64,000 nucleotides of DNA, from positions 1 to 64,000 of IMG/VR virus record IMGVR_UViG_3300028573_000011. The stretch is one strand, 5' to 3'. The translations under genes and the position numbers were made by a program. The first letter of the stretch is position 1, and every line of letters begins with the position of its first letter. Positions 2,099 through 16,804 of the stretch are shown here, in pieces. The notes beneath the pieces are model-generated. The model saw only the letters and a list, made by a program, of their open reading frames with translations. It had not been told where the DNA came from and did no database searches. The stretch comes from a virus.

Positions 2099-2866
2099 CT
2101 ATGGAGTGCCGCTCGCGCGCCGCTTCTGCTTGCGCTTCCAGGCACCCCAGCCAGTCGCGTTCCAGAACGGCGTCCAGCCCTTGCAGACCGCGCACGGGAA
2201 CGCATGCTTGGTCAGGGTCCCATTGATGGTCACCCTGAACACCATCTGGCCGGTACTCTCGCAGCTCGGACAGATGAACCGGGACGAGTTGGCCGGTGCC
2301 TTCTGCGCGGGGCCGCCGCCGTCGACCGCCCAGGCGTGGCCGCATTCGACGAGGCCGATGACGGTCAGGATCCGGCCGGCGCGCGTGTACAGGGGCCGCT
2401 GGCCCGAGCCGCGGCACCAGTCGCAACGCAGCCGGTTCAGGCCGATCAGATCGGCCGGCGTCGGGGACCTGGGCTTCGACCTGCTCGATCCGTCCATGCG
2501 GCCGCCGGGGCCCCGCCGGTAGTCCCGGGCCTGGGACGAGCGCTGCGTGCCGCCGGCCCCGGCCCGCTTGGCGTCCGCGCGCCGCGGGGTCGCAGCCGCG
2601 CCGGGCCGCGGGGTGCCGGCGGCTGGCGCGCGGTAAGTCCGGGCGCGGCGTGCGGACGCGAGCTCCCAGGTGCCGTCGGCACGGCGGCGCGCGCCGCGGG
2701 CGGAGACGGTCCTGGTGTCTGGGTCGCGACGGATCGAGGCAACTGTCTTGGGCCCGAACAGCGCCCGGGCCACCCGGCGCGGGGTCGGGTGGTTCCGCTC
2801 GTCGCCGAACAGGATCCGCGCGGCCACGCGGTGCGGCGCCCAGCCGGACGACTTGCGCCTGCCCAT
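2099..2866 (-). CDS. Basic protein with DnaJ-like CxxCxGxG zinc fingers
   Basis: CDWCRGSG, CPSCESTG, CAVCKG; starts 1 nt after the traB stop. Confidence 0.7.
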   Translation of the reverse strand: MGRRKSSGWAPHRVAARILFGDERNHPTPRRVARALFGPKTVASIRRDPDTRTVSARGARRRADGTWELASARRARTYRAPAAGTPRPGAAATPRRADAKRAGAGGTQRSSQARDYRRGPGGRMDGSSRSKPRSPTPADLIGLNRLRCDWCRGSGQRPLYTRAGRILTVIGLVECGHAWAVDGGGPAQKAPANSSRFICPSCESTGQMVFRVTINGTLTKHAFPCAVCKGWTPFWNATGWGAWKRKQKRRASGTP

Positions 2867-2867
2867 C

Positions 2868-5078
2868 TCAGGCCTCCCGTGCTCGGCGAGTTGGGGGGAC
2901 GGTGCACTCGAAGCGCTCGCTGCGGCCGTCGTCGTCGCGGCGGCTGGTCGCACCCTGGTGGATCTTGAATGCGTTCAGGGCGGCCTTGCAGGAGTCGCGG
3001 GCGGTCAGCCCGGGCAGCCGGTAAGCCTGGAGCTCGGCGATCGTGGCCGAGCCCAGGACGCGGAACAGCTGCCAGGCGTCCAGGAGCTCGTCGGCGACAG
3101 GGCTGTCGTCGGGGTAGGTCTCGCCGACGACCCGCAGGTAGGGGACGCCGGCGTGGAAGGCTTCGGCGTCGTCGACCACATCGCGGCCACCGCGCGGCCG
3201 GGGCCCGGCGGGCCCGGCCGGGCCGCCGGGATGGCGCGGGTCGCAGCGCCCTTGGAGGACCTCCTCCATCGCCTCGGCGGTGCGCTCGTCCAGGGCCGGG
3301 CGGCTGTCGCGGTTGGCTTCGACGGTGGCAACGATCTGCCCGGGTTCGATCATGTAGCCGCGGGCGACGGTTGGCCGGGGGTGGTCCGGCGACTTCGGCC
3401 GGAACATGCCGGGCTTGGGGAGCACGGTCTCGTCGGCGCGCCAGCCCTCGCCGTGGGCGCCGGGGCCGTGGATGACGTTTGTCTGGGTCGCGCTCCTGGT
3501 CCGGTAGCAGGCGATGTTGGTGAACTGGCCGGAGCCGTCGGTGGTCCCGCCGAGGGCCTTGCTCGACGGGGACTGGGTGGCGCCGATGATGATCAGGCCC
3601 AGGGCGCGGGAGACCTGCATCAGGCTGAGCCACTGGGTGAACAGCTTGGGGTCCAGGCGCAGCATCTCGGCGAGCTCGTCGATGAGGACGATGATGGCCG
3701 GCCCGTGGATGTCGGGGTCCCATTCGCGGACCGGCAGGCCGGTGCGCTCGCGCTCCTCGCGCAGGATCTGGCCGCGGACCTCCATCGCGGCGCCGAGCGC
3801 CTCCAGGAGCAGGGCGACGTCGCCGATGCCGTAGGCGGCGCGGTAGGCGACGGGCTCGTACGGGCCGAGTTCCAGCTGGCCGGGCTTGAGGTCCATCAGG
3901 ACCATGACGGCATTGTCCATGGAGGCGATGGAGCAGGCAGCGACGTTGACGCCGACGGACTTGCCGCCGTCGGTGATGCCGGCGTACAGCGTGTGGCGGC
4001 CGCGGAACCGGAAGGCAACCGGACGCTGGCCGTCGCGGACGCCGAGGTTGACCGGGTCCTTGATGCTGCGGGTGTTCGGGCCGGGCCACGGGACGGCGTC
4101 GTCGAGGGTGGAGTTCTCGCCGTCCTGGACGCGGATCTCGAAGCGGTTCCCGATCGCGGTGGGGATGATCTCCAGGCCGCGGCAGCCGAGGTTGCCGCGG
4201 AGGGTGTCGATGCGGGCGGCGAGCCAGCGGCTGTTCACGGTCTTGGACTCGGGGGTGTAGATCCAGGTGACCCAGGAGTCGGGGCCGCTTCGGCGGACTG
4301 CGTCGATGCGGATCGGCGCGACGCCGATGGCGGCGAAGGCGGCGTGGAGCCGGGCCGCCTCGTCGCTCATCATCGGCAGGCTGGCCGCCGTCGGCATCGG
4401 CGGCCCGCCGACGGGTGCCGGTGGCATCGGCGCCGACGCGACGGCGGCGTGGTAGTCGATGACGAAGTCGCGGTCGGCGGCCCGCCGATGGCGGCGCCAG
4501 TCGATCGAGCCGAGGGTGCCGACGGCGGCGAGCAGGAGGGTCGTCATCGCCGAGATGCCGGAGAAGCCGGCGCCGACGGCGGCGGCGCCTGAGACGCCGA
4601 CGGCGCCGCCGACGATGAGGCCGCGGGTGATGTGCCGGTCGGCGTCGGCGCCGTGGAGGTGGTGGCCCAGCCATCCGGCGGCGGGGGCGAGGGCCCCGGC
4701 GGCCAGGAAGGGGAGCATCAGCCAGATGTGGTTGGGCTCCATGTTGGCCCACCAGCCCGTCGCAGAGAACGCGCAGGAGCCGATGGCCGGCCACAGGTGG
4801 TAGTGGCGGATCAGGGCGAGGATCTCCGGCTCGGGCCGGGGGAGGTCGCGCTGGTCGATGAGGGCTGCGACGTGTAGCGGAAGCGGCTGGTAGGCGGGGT
4901 GCAGCGTGTAAGCGGGGTGGGCGGGAAAGACCGTTCCGTGCAGCTCAGAGCCGTTGTCGTACGGCGTGGCACGCCACACACCACAGTCATCAGAGGCCGG
5001 GTTCTCCGGCGCGCGCCGGAGATCGAGCGGGGCCTGGTGACTGTGGTGTGTGGCGTGGCCGTCCGTGATGTCGTGCAC
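2868..5078 (-). CDS. traB: FtsK/SpoIIIE-family conjugative DNA translocase (TraB/TraSA type)
   Basis: N-terminal TM helices, Walker A AGITDGGKS, DLKPGQLEL, Walker B IIVLIDELAE, RALGL..IGATQSP, C-terminal wHTH-like region; GTG 5078 overlaps upstream TAG. Confidence 0.88.
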   Translation of the reverse strand: MHDITDGHATHHSHQAPLDLRRAPENPASDDCGVWRATPYDNGSELHGTVFPAHPAYTLHPAYQPLPLHVAALIDQRDLPRPEPEILALIRHYHLWPAIGSCAFSATGWWANMEPNHIWLMLPFLAAGALAPAAGWLGHHLHGADADRHITRGLIVGGAVGVSGAAAVGAGFSGISAMTTLLLAAVGTLGSIDWRRHRRAADRDFVIDYHAAVASAPMPPAPVGGPPMPTAASLPMMSDEAARLHAAFAAIGVAPIRIDAVRRSGPDSWVTWIYTPESKTVNSRWLAARIDTLRGNLGCRGLEIIPTAIGNRFEIRVQDGENSTLDDAVPWPGPNTRSIKDPVNLGVRDGQRPVAFRFRGRHTLYAGITDGGKSVGVNVAACSIASMDNAVMVLMDLKPGQLELGPYEPVAYRAAYGIGDVALLLEALGAAMEVRGQILREERERTGLPVREWDPDIHGPAIIVLIDELAEMLRLDPKLFTQWLSLMQVSRALGLIIIGATQSPSSKALGGTTDGSGQFTNIACYRTRSATQTNVIHGPGAHGEGWRADETVLPKPGMFRPKSPDHPRPTVARGYMIEPGQIVATVEANRDSRPALDERTAEAMEEVLQGRCDPRHPGGPAGPAGPRPRGGRDVVDDAEAFHAGVPYLRVVGETYPDDSPVADELLDAWQLFRVLGSATIAELQAYRLPGLTARDSCKAALNAFKIHQGATSRRDDDGRSERFECTVPPTRRAREA

Positions 5079-6648: not shown

Positions 6649-7166
6649 GGCTGGTCCACGGCCAGGACGGCGCGGACGGTCTTGGTGTCGCCCTCGCGGT
6701 AGGTGGTGACGGCCTCGGCGCGGGCGGCGACGTCGAGCAGGCCGCGGCCGTGGGAGGCGAAACGGTCGTCGTCGGGGTCGGCGTCGGGGTCGTCGAGCCA
6801 GGCCAGGGCGTGGTCGGTCCAGGCCGCGGCGCAGGGCCAGACGGGCATGTGGTCGGCGTCGGGGTCGGTGACCTCGATGACGACGGAGCAGCCGATCACG
6901 GTGAGGCGCAGCTCGATGGTGCCGCCGGGACCGGGCCACGTGGCGTGGCGGTCGGCGTTGGACACGAGCGCGTCGACGATCTGGACCAGGTCGTCGGCCG
7001 CCCTTATGGGCAGCTGGTGGTGGTGGGCGAAGCCGGCGGCGACCATGCGGCTGTAGGCGATCGGCTCGATCGCGTCGCGCGCGATGGAGCTCTGCAGGAC
7101 GGCGCCGTGCAGCAGCCGGTGCGCGGCGGCCGCGGGGGCGGCCTTCGGCATGGTGCTGAGTCTCAT
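6645..7166 (-). CDS. RsbW-like HATPase_c ATP-binding protein
   Basis: ALVSNADRHA, IEVTDPD, HGRGLLDV, KTVRAVL motifs. Confidence 0.85.
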   Translation of the reverse strand: MRLSTMPKAAPAAAAHRLLHGAVLQSSIARDAIEPIAYSRMVAAGFAHHHQLPIRAADDLVQIVDALVSNADRHATWPGPGGTIELRLTVIGCSVVIEVTDPDADHMPVWPCAAAWTDHALAWLDDPDADPDDDRFASHGRGLLDVAARAEAVTTYREGDTKTVRAVLAVDQP

Positions 7167-7618
7167 AAGGCACCGCCCGTCCGGCCGCGCTTGACCGCGG
7201 TGAGGATCATCGCGGCGAACGCTTCGGCCTCGTCGAGGTCCATGTCGTGGTCGCCGCCGTCGTTGAAGCACAGCTGGATGGCTGGCGGCGCGCCGTTCTC
7301 GGCGGTGAGGTGGATGTCGGCGGAACGCACGGCGGTGGCCGCGGGTCCGGCATCGGTGATGGTCAGGCGGGTGCTGGTGGCGTGGACGCCGCTGTCGGCG
7401 TCGTGGTCGTTGCACCAGGTGGGGCAGGCGGTTCGCGGTCGCGGCATGACGTGGGTCATCGCTCCGAGATCGTCCGGCATGTCGTCATCCTCAGACTCCG
7501 ATTGTGCTGACCGATTGCTAACGACGTTCCCCGCGTCGGATACACGCATCAGGGCTTTGAGATACGTCTTTCGCCCGGTCAGGTTGGCCGGCCCCAGGAC
7601 TATGCGCTGGGCCGTCAT
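7163..7618 (-). CDS. Hypothetical protein with CPxWCxxH motif (DUF6907-like)
   Basis: CPTWCNDHD...H...LDEAEAFA; start uncertain. Confidence 0.55.
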   Translation of the reverse strand: MTAQRIVLGPANLTGRKTYLKALMRVSDAGNVVSNRSAQSESEDDDMPDDLGAMTHVMPRPRTACPTWCNDHDADSGVHATSTRLTITDAGPAATAVRSADIHLTAENGAPPAIQLCFNDGGDHDMDLDEAEAFAAMILTAVKRGRTGGAL

Positions 7619-9037: not shown

Positions 9038-10051
9038 GTGAAGATCATGAAGCCGGTACCGGACGGAACCGGCTGGGTAGCCATCCCAAACGCCACGGCG
9101 CGGGACACCCAGCTCGACCGCCGGGCCCTCGGCCTGCTGGTCGAGATCCTGTCCTTCCCCGACGGCTGGGAGATGAACGCCGACAGCCTCGCCACCGACG
9201 GCACCGAGGGCCGCAACGCCGTGCGCGCCGCCATGCGGAAGCTCGAGGATGCCGGCTACGTCGTCCACATCCGCCACCGCGGCGACCGCGGACGCTGGCT
9301 GACCGCAGCGTTCGCGGGCAACTCCCCTGCGGCGGCGCGCGCCGCCGCAGACGCGTGGCTGGAGCAGAATCCGGACGCGGCAGAGACACAAACGCCCAGG
9401 TCGGACCGAGGTACAGGAAACGGGGCGTCGGCCAACGGGGCGTCGGTGGAGGGGGCGTCGGCCGACGGGGTGTCGGCCAACCGGGCGTTCTATGAAAGAA
9501 GGGAGCCAAAGAAGGTGCCAAAGAAGGTCTCTAACACGTCCCCACCTGCGGCCCCGGCTCCCTCTCCCTCTCCCCCGGCTGCACCGGCGACTACGACCGT
9601 GGCCGAGCCAGACGGCGGAGAGAGGGGAAACCCATCGCCGTGGCTGCCACAACTCGATCCCGTCGCCGACGTCGTTGATGCCTGGGCCAAGGCCCGGGCC
9701 GAAACCGGCATGCCCGCGATGGCCAGCGAGCGAAGCCGGGTCCGATCCGGCGCCGTCGAGCTGCTCGGCGCAGGGCACGACGTCGCCTACCTGGCCCGGG
9801 TGGCATCCTGGATGGCCAGCGCGCATCCGGGCTGGTCAGACCTCGGGAGAGCTCGCACCGCCCCCGGCGCGCCGCTATTCGGTCACGGGCAGACGGCCGC
9901 CGTACCCGCGCCACGCCAGGACCGGCCTCCGTGTGTCGCGGATGCCTGCCGTGGCTGCGATCACGATGAATGCAATCGCAACGGGTTCCTGATCCACAGC
10001 GATCTCGGCGTCCGCTGCCCGTGCTGGTTCGTCCCGGAAGCGAGGTTCTAA
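9038..10051 (+). CDS. Replication initiator-like wHTH protein (Rep1)
   Basis: WVAIPNATARDTQLDRRALGLLVEILSFPDGWEMNADSLA...EGRNAVRAAMRKLEDAGYV; internal iterons; Cys-rich C-terminus. Confidence 0.75.
   Translation: MKIMKPVPDGTGWVAIPNATARDTQLDRRALGLLVEILSFPDGWEMNADSLATDGTEGRNAVRAAMRKLEDAGYVVHIRHRGDRGRWLTAAFAGNSPAAARAAADAWLEQNPDAAETQTPRSDRGTGNGASANGASVEGASADGVSANRAFYERREPKKVPKKVSNTSPPAAPAPSPSPPAAPATTTVAEPDGGERGNPSPWLPQLDPVADVVDAWAKARAETGMPAMASERSRVRSGAVELLGAGHDVAYLARVASWMASAHPGWSDLGRARTAPGAPLFGHGQTAAVPAPRQDRPPCVADACRGCDHDECNRNGFLIHSDLGVRCPCWFVPEARF
9421..9537. repeat. Iteron-like 15-bp direct repeats plus A-rich tract (candidate origin 1)
   Basis: CGGGGCGTCGGCCAA-like unit x4 at 9421/9436/9451/9466, then CCAAAGAAGGT x2 in an A-rich stretch. 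Confidence 0.65.
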
Positions 10052-14078: not shown

Positions 14079-14480
14079 CTACTCGCGGTTCTCCTCGCCG
14101 CCGGGCGCGTCGCGCTCGGTGATGAAGTCCTCCTCCGCGCCCTCAGCCGCCCCAAGGGCGAACTGCAAGGCGATGTCGGCGGTGGTGAACCGGCCGTCGT
14201 GCGGTCCGGCGCCGAACTTCAGGACCTGGTCGAAGGCGATGATCCACAGGTGGATCGCCACCATGACGGCCTCGGCGGTTTCCTCGCCGATCGGCGAGAT
14301 CTCCACCAGTTCCAGCGCGTCGTACAGCGGGGCGATGGTCACCGCCGGAGACTCCCCGCTGATGATGGGGGAGATCCGGATCGGGAGAGGGAACTGCTGG
14401 AGCAGTCCCACGATCATCGCGTAGATGACGGCGAGCTTGGTGAGCAGCTCTTGGAACTGCTCTTCCTCAGGAGCGTCCAC
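14079..14480 (-). CDS. Helical hypothetical protein, cassette paralogue A
   Basis: Behind conserved leader repeat; helix-P(L/I)P(I/V)-helix pattern shared with B and C. Confidence 0.75.
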   Translation of the reverse strand: MDAPEEEQFQELLTKLAVIYAMIVGLLQQFPLPIRISPIISGESPAVTIAPLYDALELVEISPIGEETAEAVMVAIHLWIIAFDQVLKFGAGPHDGRFTTADIALQFALGAAEGAEEDFITERDAPGGEENRE

Positions 14481-14500
14481 GTTCCTGCCTTTCAGTGTGG

Positions 14501-14582
14501 TGTTGTCAATCTGCTGCCGTTCGGGTTCTCAACCCCTCTCGACACTTCTAACTATACAACATAGACTCCTAGCTATGCAACA
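14501..14582 (-). repeat. Conserved promoter/operator/leader repeat, copy A
   Basis: TGTTGCATAGCTAG-N7-TGTTGTATAGTTAG...GGGGTTGAGAACCCGAACGGCAGCAGATTGACAACA. Confidence 0.9.
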
Positions 14583-14640
14583 CTCGGGCTGGTGTTCATC
14601 CGATCGAATGGACTATCGTGGGCCGGGACGTCCCGCGAGA

Positions 14641-14700
14641 GTGTGGCGTCAATCTGCTGGGCCGATGGGGTTCTCAGAACGGCAAACCCCCGTCGGCCCC
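14641..14700. ncRNA. Orphan leader-like hairpin, candidate sRNA
   Basis: Keeps GTCAATCTGCTG and GGGTTCTCA of the leader repeat inside a GGGCCGA...TCGGCCC hairpin; lacks the promoter repeat and an ORF. Confidence 0.4.
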
Positions 14701-14716
14701 AAGACTTTGAAACGCA

Positions 14717-14747
14717 GAAGGGCCCCGGCTTCCGCCGGGGCCCTTCC
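14717..14747 (-). terminator. Terminator of cassette B
   Basis: GAAGGGCCCCGGC/GCCGGGGCCCTTC perfect hairpin. Confidence 0.75.
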
Positions 14748-14754
14748 TGCTGGA

Positions 14755-15141
14755 CTAGCCCTGAACCTCCCCATCCCCGCCGTCTGCGACGAGACCGAGC
14801 CCTGCGATGCGCAGCGCCTTGCCCGCTTCGAGCAGCAGGAGCCTGGTGTTCATCTCGGCCCAGTCACCGCCGCGAGCGGCGAACCAGGCCATTGCGAACA
14901 TCGCGCCCATCGTGCGCTGGAGCGCCTTGCGCATCATCATGGCCACGCTCGGCGCCAGACCCGGCATCACGCCGATGAGCTCGGCCGCGTGCATCAGCGT
15001 TTCGGCCGATGCCTCCAGGTTGTCGGCGAGTTCGAACCCGACGGGGATCGGCAGCGCCGCCATGAAGTCCCTCAGGAAGAGCGCCTGTTCGGCGAACTCC
15101 AGCTTGAGGACCTGGAGACGTGCCTCGTGGTCTTCGGACAT
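14755..15141 (-). CDS. Helical hypothetical protein, cassette paralogue B
   Basis: MSED...AEQ...LPIPV...MHAAEL; RBS GGGAGG. Confidence 0.8.
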   Translation of the reverse strand: MSEDHEARLQVLKLEFAEQALFLRDFMAALPIPVGFELADNLEASAETLMHAAELIGVMPGLAPSVAMMMRKALQRTMGAMFAMAWFAARGGDWAEMNTRLLLLEAGKALRIAGLGLVADGGDGEVQG

Positions 15142-15157
15142 GCTGTCCTCCCTGTTG

Positions 15158-15239
15158 TGTTGTCAATCTGCTGTCGTTCGGGTTCTCAACCCCTCCCGAC
15201 ACTTCTAACTATACAACAGGGAACCCTAGCTATGCAACA
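15158..15239 (-). repeat. Conserved promoter/operator/leader repeat, copy B
   Basis: Near-identical to copy A apart from the 7-bp spacer. Confidence 0.9.
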
Positions 15240-15256
15240 GTCGTCAGGGTGAACCC

Positions 15257-15655
15257 TCAGTCGGCGGCCGGCCTGCGCCGCGGCCGCCGACTCTCCAGGT
15301 AGTCCGCGACCGCGTTCGCCCGGTACTGCATCACGCCGTCCTTCTCCACACCCTCCCCGAACAGGCCGCGGTGCGCGTGCCCGGCCATCGTCGACCGCGG
15401 CTGCCCGATGATCTCCCCCACCTCCCGAGGCGTCACCAGCCGCGTCCCCAGCTTGCGCAGCCGGCTGACCGCGGCCAGGTTGCGTCGTGCAGCCAGCACG
15501 GCCTCCACTGCGGCCGCCTCGTAGGTGTCGTAGAGCCCGCGCTTGTCCCCCTTGGGCGGCCAGTCCTGCTGGCCAACCCACAGGTCCACCGTCTTGATCG
15601 AGACGCCGTACTTCGCGGCGATCTCCTTCTTCGTGAGCCACTTCGTGTCGTTCAT
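15257..15655 (-). CDS. Tandem Xis/AlpA-like wHTH DNA-binding protein
   Basis: WLTKKEIAAKYGVSIKTVDLW and LVTPREVGEIIGQPRSTM; RBS GAGGAG. Confidence 0.75.
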   Translation of the reverse strand: MNDTKWLTKKEIAAKYGVSIKTVDLWVGQQDWPPKGDKRGLYDTYEAAAVEAVLAARRNLAAVSRLRKLGTRLVTPREVGEIIGQPRSTMAGHAHRGLFGEGVEKDGVMQYRANAVADYLESRRPRRRPAAD

Positions 15656-15710
15656 GGTCGCGTTCTCCTCTTCCGGCGGCCAGGGAGGACCGTCCAGTCC
15701 GAAGCTCGGG

Positions 15711-15740
15711 GCCGCCCCGGTTGAGAAGACCGGGGCGGCC
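15711..15740 (-). terminator. Hairpin/terminator after cassette C
   Basis: GCCGCCCCGGT/ACCGGGGCGGC inverted repeat. Confidence 0.55.
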
Positions 15741-15746
15741 GTCAGG

Positions 15747-16124
15747 CTACTTAGCGCCCGGGGGCAGCTGGCCGCCGAGGGCGACCAGACACCTTCCGGC
15801 GAGTTCGAAGCTGACCACTGCGTGGAACCGCGACTGGCGCAGGATCTTCGGCATGCCGTGGTAGCTGCGCGCGTGAGCCAGGATCGCCGCAGTGATCCAG
15901 TTCTCGACCGCGTACAGCGCCAGGTTCTCCGCCTCGTTGAGGCCGCCGCGCTCCATGAGCACGTCGGCCGCGTGTCGCATGTTCTCGACCGCGACGGAGA
16001 GGTTCCCTTCGGCGGCGACGTTGATCGGCGGTCGCAGGATTCCGAGGAGTGCTGCGAGCACCGTCGTCTGTTCCGCCAGGTAACGCACCAGATCGGCGCG
16101 CTGGGCCTGGATGTCTTCGGACAT
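15747..16124 (-). CDS. Helical hypothetical protein, cassette paralogue C
   Basis: MSED...AEQ...LRPPINV...MRHAADV; RBS GGGAGG. Confidence 0.8.
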   Translation of the reverse strand: MSEDIQAQRADLVRYLAEQTTVLAALLGILRPPINVAAEGNLSVAVENMRHAADVLMERGGLNEAENLALYAVENWITAAILAHARSYHGMPKILRQSRFHAVVSFELAGRCLVALGGQLPPGAK

Positions 16125-16140
16125 CGTGTCCTCCCTGTTG

Positions 16141-16223
16141 TGTTGTCAATCTGCTTGCCGTTCGGGTTCTCAACCCCTCCCGACACCTCTAACTATACAA
16201 CACAAACTTCTAGCTATGCAACA
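16141..16223 (-). repeat. Conserved promoter/operator/leader repeat, copy C
   Basis: Near-identical to copies A and B apart from the 7-bp spacer. Confidence 0.9.
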
Positions 16224-16224
16224 C

Positions 16225-16596
16225 CTATTGCGGGTCAAGTTCCCCACGCTCGGACAGCCTGAAGGACACCAGCTCCCCATCGGCGACCACAGCCAGGAAC
16301 CGCATGCCCGGCAGCGCCTCCGCGTCAACCCCGAGCTGCTCGGCGACCAACTCCGCCGGGAACCAGTGCTTGTTCCCGCTCGGCGGGATCAGCAGCGCGC
16401 GCGCCTCAGAACCGCGGCCGATCGTCAGCGACACGCGTACCGGCACGGGCTCGTTGGCGACGGCTGCCATCCCCCGCGCCTCATCACGGCCCTGCGCTGC
16501 GTCGGGACCGGCGCCGGCAAGCATGATTTCGACGCGTGCCAGGACACCCTCAGTCGCCTCGCTCCCCACGCTCGCGGCCCGCGGCATCTCAGGCAC
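16225..16596 (-). CDS. Hypothetical protein
   Basis: Overlaps stop of the Phd-like gene; no recognisable toxin motif. Confidence 0.55.
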   Translation of the reverse strand: MPEMPRAASVGSEATEGVLARVEIMLAGAGPDAAQGRDEARGMAAVANEPVPVRVSLTIGRGSEARALLIPPSGNKHWFPAELVAEQLGVDAEALPGMRFLAVVADGELVSFRLSERGELDPQ

Positions 16597-16804
16597 GATC
16601 GGCCCCCGCCAGAACCGCGAGCACTGCATCCGGGCCGCCGGCGCGCTGAATGGCCTCGCCCAGCTCGGCAGGGACGAGGGCAACCTGGCGCTTTCCGCGG
16701 CTGGTCAGGAAGTACGTGCGGCGTAGCAGCTTCACCGCGTTCATCAGTTCGCTGAGGTTCGCACGGGCTTCGACAATCGGCTGGTCTTCGGAGTTCATGT
16801 CCAT
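16589..16804 (-). CDS. Phd/YefM-family antitoxin-like DNA-binding protein
   Basis: IVEARANLSELMNAV....TYFLTSRGKRQVALVP; TAGAAT 7 nt before ATG (leaderless). Confidence 0.85.
   Translation of the reverse strand: MDMNSEDQPIVEARANLSELMNAVKLLRRTYFLTSRGKRQVALVPAELGEAIQRAGGPDAVLAVLAGADRA

What the first reader, a model, noticed from the sequence alone, without database searches (positions are those of the whole stretch)
14612..14747. Orphan fourth leader copy that could be a trans-antisense RNA or decoy for all three cassettes
Seen: 14641-14700 keeps GTCAATCTGCTG and GGGTTCTCA of the leader but lacks the promoter repeats, RBS and ORF, and is rebuilt as a hairpin (GGGCCGA.GGGG...CCCC.TCGGCCC). Read on plus, GUCAAUCUGC is single-stranded and complementary to the leaders just upstream of each RBS; a TATCGT -10-like hexamer lies upstream and a strong hairpin at 14717-14747 downstream. 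Read on minus, its loop UGCCGUUC is complementary to the leader GAACGGCA. Inference: one sRNA controlling three mRNAs, like a shared type I antitoxin.
Basis: partly seen in the sequence, partly recalled or inferred. Interest (0 to 1): 0.7.

Follow-up and report, generated by a model that had tools for sequence, protein, structure and literature searches.

The report
Detached leader-derived antisense RNA gene
The "orphan leader copy" is real; in related prophages the same conserved, structured element lies opposite the leader of a regulator gene, and here it has lost that gene but kept a promoter-like hexamer, a 12-base match to three gene leaders, a hairpin and a terminator, so it probably makes a small plus-strand RNA that pairs with those leaders, although no expression data exist.

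Summary
Window 14648-14700 carries the two invariant blocks of the three cassette leaders (12/12 and 9/9) inside a 12-bp hairpin. A TATCGT hexamer lies upstream and a 13-bp terminator hairpin lies downstream. The similarity is far beyond chance (0 of 1000 shuffles).

The element is not a decaying duplicate. The same module (cassettes plus a tandem-HTH gene) occurs in Catenulispora yoronensis and in eight other actinomycete genomes searched. There, the equivalent long-hairpin element follows the last cassette's terminator and usually forms the 5'UTR of the HTH gene. It has been detached from that gene three times: this phage, Catenulispora and G488.

All three detached copies lost the start codon, and the two old ones also the RBS. 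All kept the hairpin (with compensatory changes), the adjacent leader motif and a TANNNT hexamer.

Within the conserved helices, pairing is nearly perfect on the strand opposite the genes (98.5% and 100%). It is poorer on the gene strand (79.8% and 94.2%).

Best reading (0.55): a plus-strand RNA of about 120 nt that pairs with the three leaders. No RNA data were available. No Rfam family matches. The scan held no look-alike stretch from other windows.

The parts
14614..14619 (+). TATCGT, candidate -10 hexamer (TANNNT) of the plus-strand RNA. On the minus strand, ACGATAGTCC looks like the relic of the HTH gene start ATGGTAGTCC seen in G230.
   Evidence: all 11 elements have TANNNT 27-39 nt from the hairpin. 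In 8 attached modules it is TACCAT, overlapping ATG-GTA (a rare Val codon, 8/8 here against 1/61 elsewhere).
14626..14750 (+). Predicted extent of the small RNA (about 122 nt). The start is inferred from the -10 hexamer and the end from the terminator hairpin.
   Evidence: predicted lengths 122-168 nt in the 11 elements; 149-nt plus-strand fold, -80.2 kcal/mol, z -4.2
14648..14659 (+). Seed GTCAATCTGCTG, complementary to CAGCAGAUUGAC in the three minus-strand leaders.
   Evidence: duplex energy -18.8 kcal/mol
14659..14700 (+). Long hairpin: 12-bp stem (14659-14670 with 14688-14699) and a 17-nt loop.
   Evidence: the outer helix is 100% paired in 5 type II sequences on this strand, with 3 pairs showing compensatory change.
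14668..14676 (+). GGGTTCTCA block. Its loop part (UUCUCA) is complementary to the apical loop (UGAGAA) of each leader hairpin, making it a candidate loop-loop contact.
   Evidence: unpaired segment after the 5' arm in all elements
14717..14747 (.). 13-bp GC-rich terminator hairpin, shared by cassette 2 (minus strand) and the predicted RNA (plus strand).
   Evidence: The T-richer tail is on the minus side.
14505..14531 (-). Target site in the cassette 1 leader (motif plus hairpin loop).
15162..15188 (-). Target site in the cassette 2 leader.
16145..16172 (-). Target site in the cassette 3 leader (11 of 12 in the seed).
15257..15655 (-). Tandem-HTH gene, the orthologue of the gene that the element precedes in related modules. 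Here it sits elsewhere and does not start with ATGGTA.
14079..16224 (-). Array of three cassettes (genes 14079-14480, 14755-15141 and 15747-16124), each with a TTGCAT-N18-TATAGT promoter inside direct repeats and a shared leader.

Best explanation
Window 14614-14750 is a small-RNA gene read on the plus strand, opposite to the cassettes. It descends from the leader region of the module's tandem-HTH gene. In most related prophage modules an antisense RNA appears to start at a TACCAT hexamer overlapping the HTH start codon. It then runs back through the HTH leader motif and a long hairpin, and ends at the terminator of the preceding cassette. In this phage the HTH gene has moved and the element stands alone.

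Shown:
- homology to those elements;
- a conserved helix with compensatory changes;
- better pairing on this strand;
- retention of the TANNNT hexamer, seed, hairpin and terminator while the RBS and ATG decayed.

Inferred: the RNA (about 122 nt) pairs with the three cassette leaders through a 12-nt seed that ends 21 nt upstream of the start codons. A loop-loop contact (UUCUCA with UGAGAA) may help. The pairing would lower translation or trigger duplex cleavage. With cassette 2 it also shares a fully complementary terminator.
For: 1. The homology to the leaders is real, and the two retained blocks are the ones invariant among the leaders.

2. Catenulispora yoronensis carries the syntenic module: cassette, terminator, HTH (37% identity), cassettes, terminator, orphan. 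Its orphan has a 12-bp stem next to GGCAGATCGAC and no RBS or ORF. Only three such motif copies occur in 11.6 Mb.

3. A profile search found the cassettes in 9 of 301 genomes of that order. In 8 modules a promoterless long-hairpin leader follows the last cassette's terminator and precedes the HTH gene. G488 has a third detached copy.

4. Strand test inside the conserved helices:
- Type I: 98.5% of cells paired and covariation 0.367 (0 of 500 shuffles) on the antisense strand, against 79.8% on the sense strand. RNAalifold gives -28.2 against -16.0.
- Type II, which includes this phage: outer helix 100% against 94.2%, and -25.3 against -21.9.

5. There are ten C(UUCG)G tetraloops on the antisense strand.

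6. HTH codon 2 is GTA in 8 of 8 attached modules, against 1 of 61 other Val codons. All three detached copies lost ATG but keep TANNNT.

7. All 11 elements share one architecture.

8. The target sites in the leaders are predicted to be open, at 0.7-1.1 kcal/mol.
Against: - No transcript evidence of any kind exists, and no conserved -35 was found. TACCAT could instead reflect selection on the first codons.
- The raw MFE and G.U strand bias is confounded by composition. Bona fide sense leaders also fold better on their antisense strand in 16 of 23 cases.
- For the phage copy alone the two strands tie in energy. It has one strand-specific wobble and no UUCG loop.
- Substitutions between the HTH-type elements and the cassette leaders show no excess of wobble-compatible transitions (18 against 13).
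- In some genomes contiguous complementarity to the cassette leaders is only 6-8 nt, so action in trans is not supported family-wide.
- The seed is partly sequestered in predicted folds, at 4.3-8.6 kcal/mol.
- The terminator's T-richer tail is on the minus side.
Confidence: 0.55

Rival explanations
1. The element acts on the gene (minus) strand. It would be a retained HTH-type mRNA leader hairpin sitting in read-through transcripts of cassette 2. It might serve as a second terminator or insulator in front of the cassette 1 promoter, a 3' stabiliser, or a processing site.
For: In 8 of 11 cases the element is physically the 5'UTR of the HTH gene on the gene strand. The hairpin is also stable on that strand (-24.9 kcal/mol, z -3.0). 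It lies 15 nt after a terminator whose T-rich tail faces this direction. The composition confound weakens the strand call.
Against: On the gene strand the conserved helices carry recurrent C-A mismatches: 79.8% paired against 98.5%, and 94.2% against 100%. The old detached copies lost exactly the sense-strand features (SD, ATG) but kept TANNNT on the other strand. The hairpin is not followed by a T run.
Confidence: 0.2
2. The element is a non-functional relic left when the HTH gene or a cassette was deleted or moved. Its similarity to the leaders is residual or kept up by gene conversion.
For: The G488 copy still shows a recognisable remnant of the HTH start (CACATCGTAG), so such relics do arise by rearrangement. 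The phage carries a possible remnant, ACGATAGTCC. No close relative of this phage is available to measure constraint.
Against: The phage and Catenulispora share the detached arrangement although their proteins are only 25-37% identical. Both still keep a 12-bp helix, with 5 of 12 pairs changed on both sides. Every substitution in the stem arms relative to the leaders lengthens or strengthens the helix. Blocks of 12/12 and 9/9 sit beside diverged flanks.
Confidence: 0.12
3. The element is a decoy or extra binding site for a factor that recognises the leader motif or hairpin. It would titrate or recruit a protein such as the tandem-HTH protein or an RNA-binding protein.
For: The same two sequence blocks are invariant in all leader copies and in the orphan. 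The element lies 34 bp from the cassette 1 promoter repeats.
Against: Compensatory stem changes point to a folded nucleic acid rather than a duplex DNA site. The GGGTT-N3-AACCC palindrome of the leaders is split by 9 extra bases in the orphan. No candidate RNA-binding protein was identified: the cassette protein is a generic four-helix bundle without structural matches.
Confidence: 0.08
4. A minus-strand RNA uses its loop UGCCGUUC to pair with GAACGGCA in the leaders. This would be a same-strand antisense, as in phage P1 c4.
For: There is an exact 8-nt complementarity.
Against: The complementarity is not conserved. The loops of the Catenulispora and other elements carry no such complement. Minus-strand duplex energies against the leaders are at shuffle level.
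Confidence: 0.03

Closest known systems
par locus of Enterococcus plasmid pAD1 (fst mRNA RNA I and antitoxin RNA II). Recalled from the literature, not tested here.
   Same: The RNAs are convergently transcribed and share a bidirectional terminator. Direct repeats on the DNA, read in opposite directions, give complementarity between the 5' region of the small RNA and the 5' leader of the mRNA. Cassette 2 and the predicted RNA have exactly this layout.
   Different: The par target encodes a 33-aa membrane toxin. Here the targets would be three 125-133 aa soluble four-helix proteins of unknown function, two of them encoded elsewhere. No toxicity or transcript has been shown.
Divergently encoded type I antitoxin sRNAs with 5'UTR complementarity (istR-1/tisB, orzO/zorO, ohsC/shoB). 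From general knowledge.
   Same: A short trans-encoded RNA next to its target has a seed of about 12-20 nt against the leader, upstream of the RBS. One RNA kind can serve paralogous targets.
   Different: The defining small hydrophobic toxin is absent. Here the RNA gene derives from the leader of a regulator gene and is usually cis-antisense to it.
Phage antisense RNAs that restrain regulatory or late genes (P22 sar, lambda OOP and the paQ transcript, P1/P7 c4). From general knowledge.
   Same: A phage-encoded small RNA lies opposite the 5' region of a regulator gene. In the attached relatives the element lies opposite the leader and start of the HTH gene, which heads the region before the terminase genes.
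   Different: There is no sequence or Rfam relationship. Here the copy is detached from its cis target and matches three other leaders.
Start-associated sequences (SAS/ESAS) of Cluster K mycobacteriophages. From general knowledge.
   Same: A conserved sequence with an adjacent hairpin is repeated in the leaders of several actinophage genes.
   Different: SAS elements lie at the RBS of many genes and have no promoterless, ORF-less copy with its own terminator. No similarity was tested.

Membership tests
Antisense element of the tandem-HTH gene leader (family defined here, 11 elements in 10 genomes) | Lies after the terminator hairpin of a cassette of the four-helix protein family, on the same DNA side | tested here: met
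   Terminator 14717-14747, spacer 15 nt, hairpin 14659-14700. The same order holds in all 11 elements.
Antisense element of the tandem-HTH gene leader (family defined here, 11 elements in 10 genomes) | Outer helix of 11-14 bp, kept through compensatory changes, with an unpaired stretch after its 5' arm that matches the cassette leader loop | tested here: met
   Type II alignment that includes the phage: outer helix 100% paired, 3 pairs with changes on both sides, covariation 0.295 (2 of 500 shuffles). The unpaired stretch starts UUCUCA.
Antisense element of the tandem-HTH gene leader (family defined here, 11 elements in 10 genomes) | The leader motif of the same genome's cassettes lies directly next to the helix | tested here: met
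   12/12 with cassettes 1 and 2, and 11/12 with cassette 3.
Antisense element of the tandem-HTH gene leader (family defined here, 11 elements in 10 genomes) | TANNNT hexamer on the antisense strand, 27-39 nt from the helix | tested here: met
   TATCGT at 14614-14619, 39 nt from the helix.
Antisense element of the tandem-HTH gene leader (family defined here, 11 elements in 10 genomes) | Transcribed as a discrete RNA from the strand opposite the genes | not testable with these tools
   No RNA run is listed for this DNA.
Type I toxin-antitoxin system | The toxin is a small (usually under 60 aa) hydrophobic peptide | tested here: not met
   The targets encode 125-133 aa proteins. The AlphaFold model of P0002 is a soluble four-helix bundle with pLDDT 86.7.
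Type I toxin-antitoxin system | Antitoxin RNA complementary to the toxin mRNA | tested here: inconclusive
   Complementarity is present (12-nt seed, -18.8 kcal/mol). The RNA itself has not been shown.
Any Rfam family | Covariance-model match at the gathering score | tested here: not met
   No match in the window or in 9 related loci. Only sub-threshold hits to the terminator hairpin were found.
   The repeats occur only at the three cassettes. No RBS or coding ORF follows. The best homology is to HTH-type leaders of relatives.

The most novel reading that the evidence does not exclude
The element shows a cis-antisense RNA that has become a trans-acting regulator. The RNA normally overlaps the leader of a phage regulator gene. 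In three separate lineages (this phage, Catenulispora, G488) it has been cut loose from that gene. It survives as a stand-alone sRNA gene that controls a whole array of paralogous accessory-gene cassettes, through a linear seed plus a loop-loop contact. This would define a new RNA family of actinomycete prophages.
Probability: 0.35. Interest if true: 0.75.

Novelty: new variant of a known kind. Interest (0 to 1): 0.6.

Why it matters
Regulatory RNAs of actinomycete phages are almost unknown, and none of Rfam's models matches this element.

If the plus-strand RNA exists, it defines a conserved RNA family. The family is tied to a compact, mobile module: a tandem-HTH regulator plus one to four cassettes of an uncharacterised four-helix protein. 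In prophages this module sits just before the packaging genes.

The detached copies would show how a cis-antisense RNA can become a trans-acting one while co-evolving with its targets. That is a long-discussed route for the origin of sRNAs.

The work also gives a concrete, cultivable test organism, Catenulispora yoronensis JCM 16014, for a phage known only from metagenomes.

Tried and rejected
The short metagenomic contigs of the closest gene-2 relatives (P0005, P0006, P0007, P0009) could not be read.
- No RNA holder is listed among public runs.
- Laying contigs of four DNA runs showed only identical fragments of the same phage and no variants.
- Protein and DNA-pattern scans found no relative in viral contigs, metagenome contigs, phage records or plasmid records. 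The first genome-contig scan also failed.
- A loose motif scan of 400 Actinomycetes genomes gave only single, chance-like hits outside Catenulispora.
- Function of the cassette proteins: there were no Pfam or PADLOC matches and only one weak PHROG match (P0001, E 0.0017). Foldseek against PDB found no significant fold match, and the ESM Atlas gave only low-score leads.
- RNAduplex-based target ranking is meaningless in 70% GC sequence, because long spurious duplexes dominate.
- The raw comparison of MFE and G.U counts between strands was dropped as primary evidence. The control on true leaders showed the same bias.
- The test for wobble-compatible transitions between element and leaders showed no bias.
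- A MAFFT alignment of only the two orphans put the stems out of register. No covariance model was built because the type II alignment with flanks was not in structural register.

Full report
**Setting.** The window is the first 64 kb of a 95,441-bp virus record with direct terminal repeats and about 70% G+C. Between 14079 and 16224 the minus strand carries three cassettes. Each has a TTGCAT-N18-TATAGT promoter embedded in two 14-bp direct repeats, a leader of about 65 nt, and a gene of 125-133 aa (genes 14079-14480, 14755-15141 and 15747-16124). A tandem-HTH gene (15257-15655) lies between cassettes 3 and 2. The upstream regions are about 90% identical. Proteins 2 and 3 share only 27% identity, and protein 1 is barely alignable.

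**The observation.** The finding lies on the minus strand between the terminator hairpin of cassette 2 (14717-14747) and the promoter of cassette 1.
- The local alignment to each leader is far above shuffles, with 0 of 1000 reaching it.
- The promoter repeats are absent, and nothing coding follows.
- The hairpin, the TATCGT hexamer and the downstream hairpin are as described.
- The 8-nt inverted match in the loop is exact.

Compared with the leaders, every substitution in the stem arms lengthens or strengthens the helix. That is not what a decaying copy would do.

**Finding relatives.** Nothing similar was found in viral contigs, metagenome contigs, phage records or plasmid records. Other public runs hold only the same clone.

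A profile search of 1.84 billion representatives found only five clusters. Two of them are adjacent genes of Catenulispora yoronensis. That locus (L003) carries the same module in the same order:
- a cassette (6936-7331) and its terminator;
- a tandem-HTH gene with 37% identity;
- two more cassettes and a terminator;
- at 9117-9180, a copy with no promoter, RBS or ORF, made of a 12-bp stem followed directly by GGCAGATCGAC.

A leader-motif pattern matches exactly three times in that 11.6-Mb genome: the leaders of cassettes A and B, and this copy. The third cassette's leader carries a variant, GCAGGTTGAC, which the pattern missed. The module there is a 3-kb island between ordinary chromosomal genes.

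A broader profile then found the cassette family in 9 of 301 genomes of the same order. In those prophage modules one to four cassettes are followed by three things: the last terminator, a promoterless long-hairpin leader, and the orthologous HTH gene. The region continues into terminase genes. The phage element is plainly homologous to the 'type II' HTH leaders, with GGGGCCGAC...TGAGA...GTCGGCCCC followed by the motif. So the 'orphan' is an HTH-type leader element that has lost its gene. G488 shows a third, younger detachment, with the remnant CACATCGTAG where the others have CACCATGGTAG.

**Which strand?** Raw folding energies and G.U counts favour the strand opposite the genes in 11 of 11 elements. 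I do not rely on this. True cassette leaders show the same bias in 16 of 23 cases, because the gene strand is C/A-rich. Shuffle-corrected z-scores still favour the antisense strand in 9 of 11.

The stronger test is pairing inside the conserved helices.

| Set | Measure | Antisense strand | Gene strand |
|---|---|---|---|
| Type I (6 sequences) | cells paired | 98.5% (covariation 0.367, 0 of 500 shuffles) | 79.8% (outer helix 74.4%) |
| Type I | RNAalifold, kcal/mol | -28.2 | -16.0 |
| Type II (5 sequences, with the phage) | outer helix paired | 100% | 94.2% |
| Type II | RNAalifold, kcal/mol | -25.3 | -21.9 |

On the gene strand of type I the failures are recurrent C-A oppositions. Ten C(UUCG)G tetraloops lie on the antisense strand, though none is in the phage copy. 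By contrast, the cassette leader hairpin has its wobble pairs on the gene strand, as an mRNA leader should.

**A promoter?**
- In all eight attached modules the HTH gene starts ATG-GTA-G. GTA is 1 of 61 Val codons elsewhere in these genes.
- On the other strand this reads TACCAT, a TANNNT hexamer.
- The phage and Catenulispora HTH genes, which no longer adjoin the element, do not start this way.
- The three detached elements have lost the ATG but still carry TANNNT (TATCGT, TAGACT, TACGAT) at the matching place, 28-39 nt from the helix.
- No conserved -35 was seen.
- All 11 elements share one plan on the antisense strand: hexamer, 27-39 nt containing the complement of the leader motif, a helix with an unpaired stretch after its 5' arm, 10-55 nt, then the terminator. 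Predicted RNAs are 122-168 nt.

**Mechanism.** In attached modules the RNA would be fully complementary to the HTH leader. In this phage there is no cis target, so continued conservation implies action in trans. The candidates are the three leaders.
- There is a 12-nt perfect seed (-18.8 kcal/mol) against a site predicted to be open (0.7-1.1 kcal/mol). The site ends 21 nt before the start codons.
- The loop UUCUCA is complementary to the apical loop UGAGAA of each leader hairpin.
- For cassette 2, the terminator is shared.

This step is inferred. The seed is partly buried in predicted folds. A test for wobble-compatible substitutions between elements and leaders showed no bias (18 against 13). 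In some genomes the contiguous match to cassette leaders is short.

**Comparison and verdict.** No Rfam family matches. The layout most resembles convergent type I systems such as par of pAD1 and the phage antisense regulators, but the cassette proteins are soluble four-helix bundles, so it is not a type I toxin-antitoxin system.

I rate the plus-strand RNA with trans action on the leaders at 0.55. A gene-strand role gets 0.2, a relic 0.12, a protein decoy 0.08 and the minus-strand loop model 0.03. Expression data would settle it.

Noticed in passing
window 14539-14567 (+): A second plus-strand promoter-like site, TCGACA-N17-TAGACT, lies inside the cassette 1 promoter and points towards the element. 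Both hexamers depend on bases unique to cassette 1. Catenulispora also has TAGACT before its copy.
   Followed up: partly
L039 (G488) 2750-4976: Composite module: two cassettes with type I leaders, a detached type I hairpin element (3732-3793) with a broken HTH start, then a cassette with a type II leader, a type II element (4457-4507) and the HTH gene. Modules seem to fuse by recombination at these elements.
   Followed up: partly
L040 about 3500-3770 and L041 about 3810-4070: Downstream of a second, oppositely oriented cassette lies a run of several GC-rich hairpins with TTCG loops (for example GGCCGCCCCC..GGCCTTCGGCC..GGGCGGCC). Their nature is unknown.
   Followed up: no
window 15257-15655 (-) and L003 7419-7811: The tandem-HTH proteins match the PADLOC model mad1 (E 7e-8 and 4e-16) and the HTH part of small-terminase PHROGs. 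In prophage relatives the gene sits a few genes upstream of the terminase genes.
   Followed up: partly
window 16225-16683 (-) and L045 2820-3737: The gene just upstream of the cassette array carries the same PHROG domain (phrog_34071) in the phage and in G230, so synteny extends beyond the module.
   Followed up: no
L003 6200-9290: In Catenulispora the whole module is a 3-kb island without phage genes. It lies between a thermolysin-like protease gene and an EamA/F420-oxidoreductase gene, so the module can exist on its own.
   Followed up: partly
L003 7380-7405: The leader of the relocated Catenulispora HTH gene still carries GCCGATCGAC (9 of 10 of the motif) just before its RBS. This could be a remaining target site.
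   Followed up: no
window 14625-14634: A perfect 10-bp palindrome, GGGACGTCCC, lies at the predicted 5' end of the RNA.
   Followed up: no
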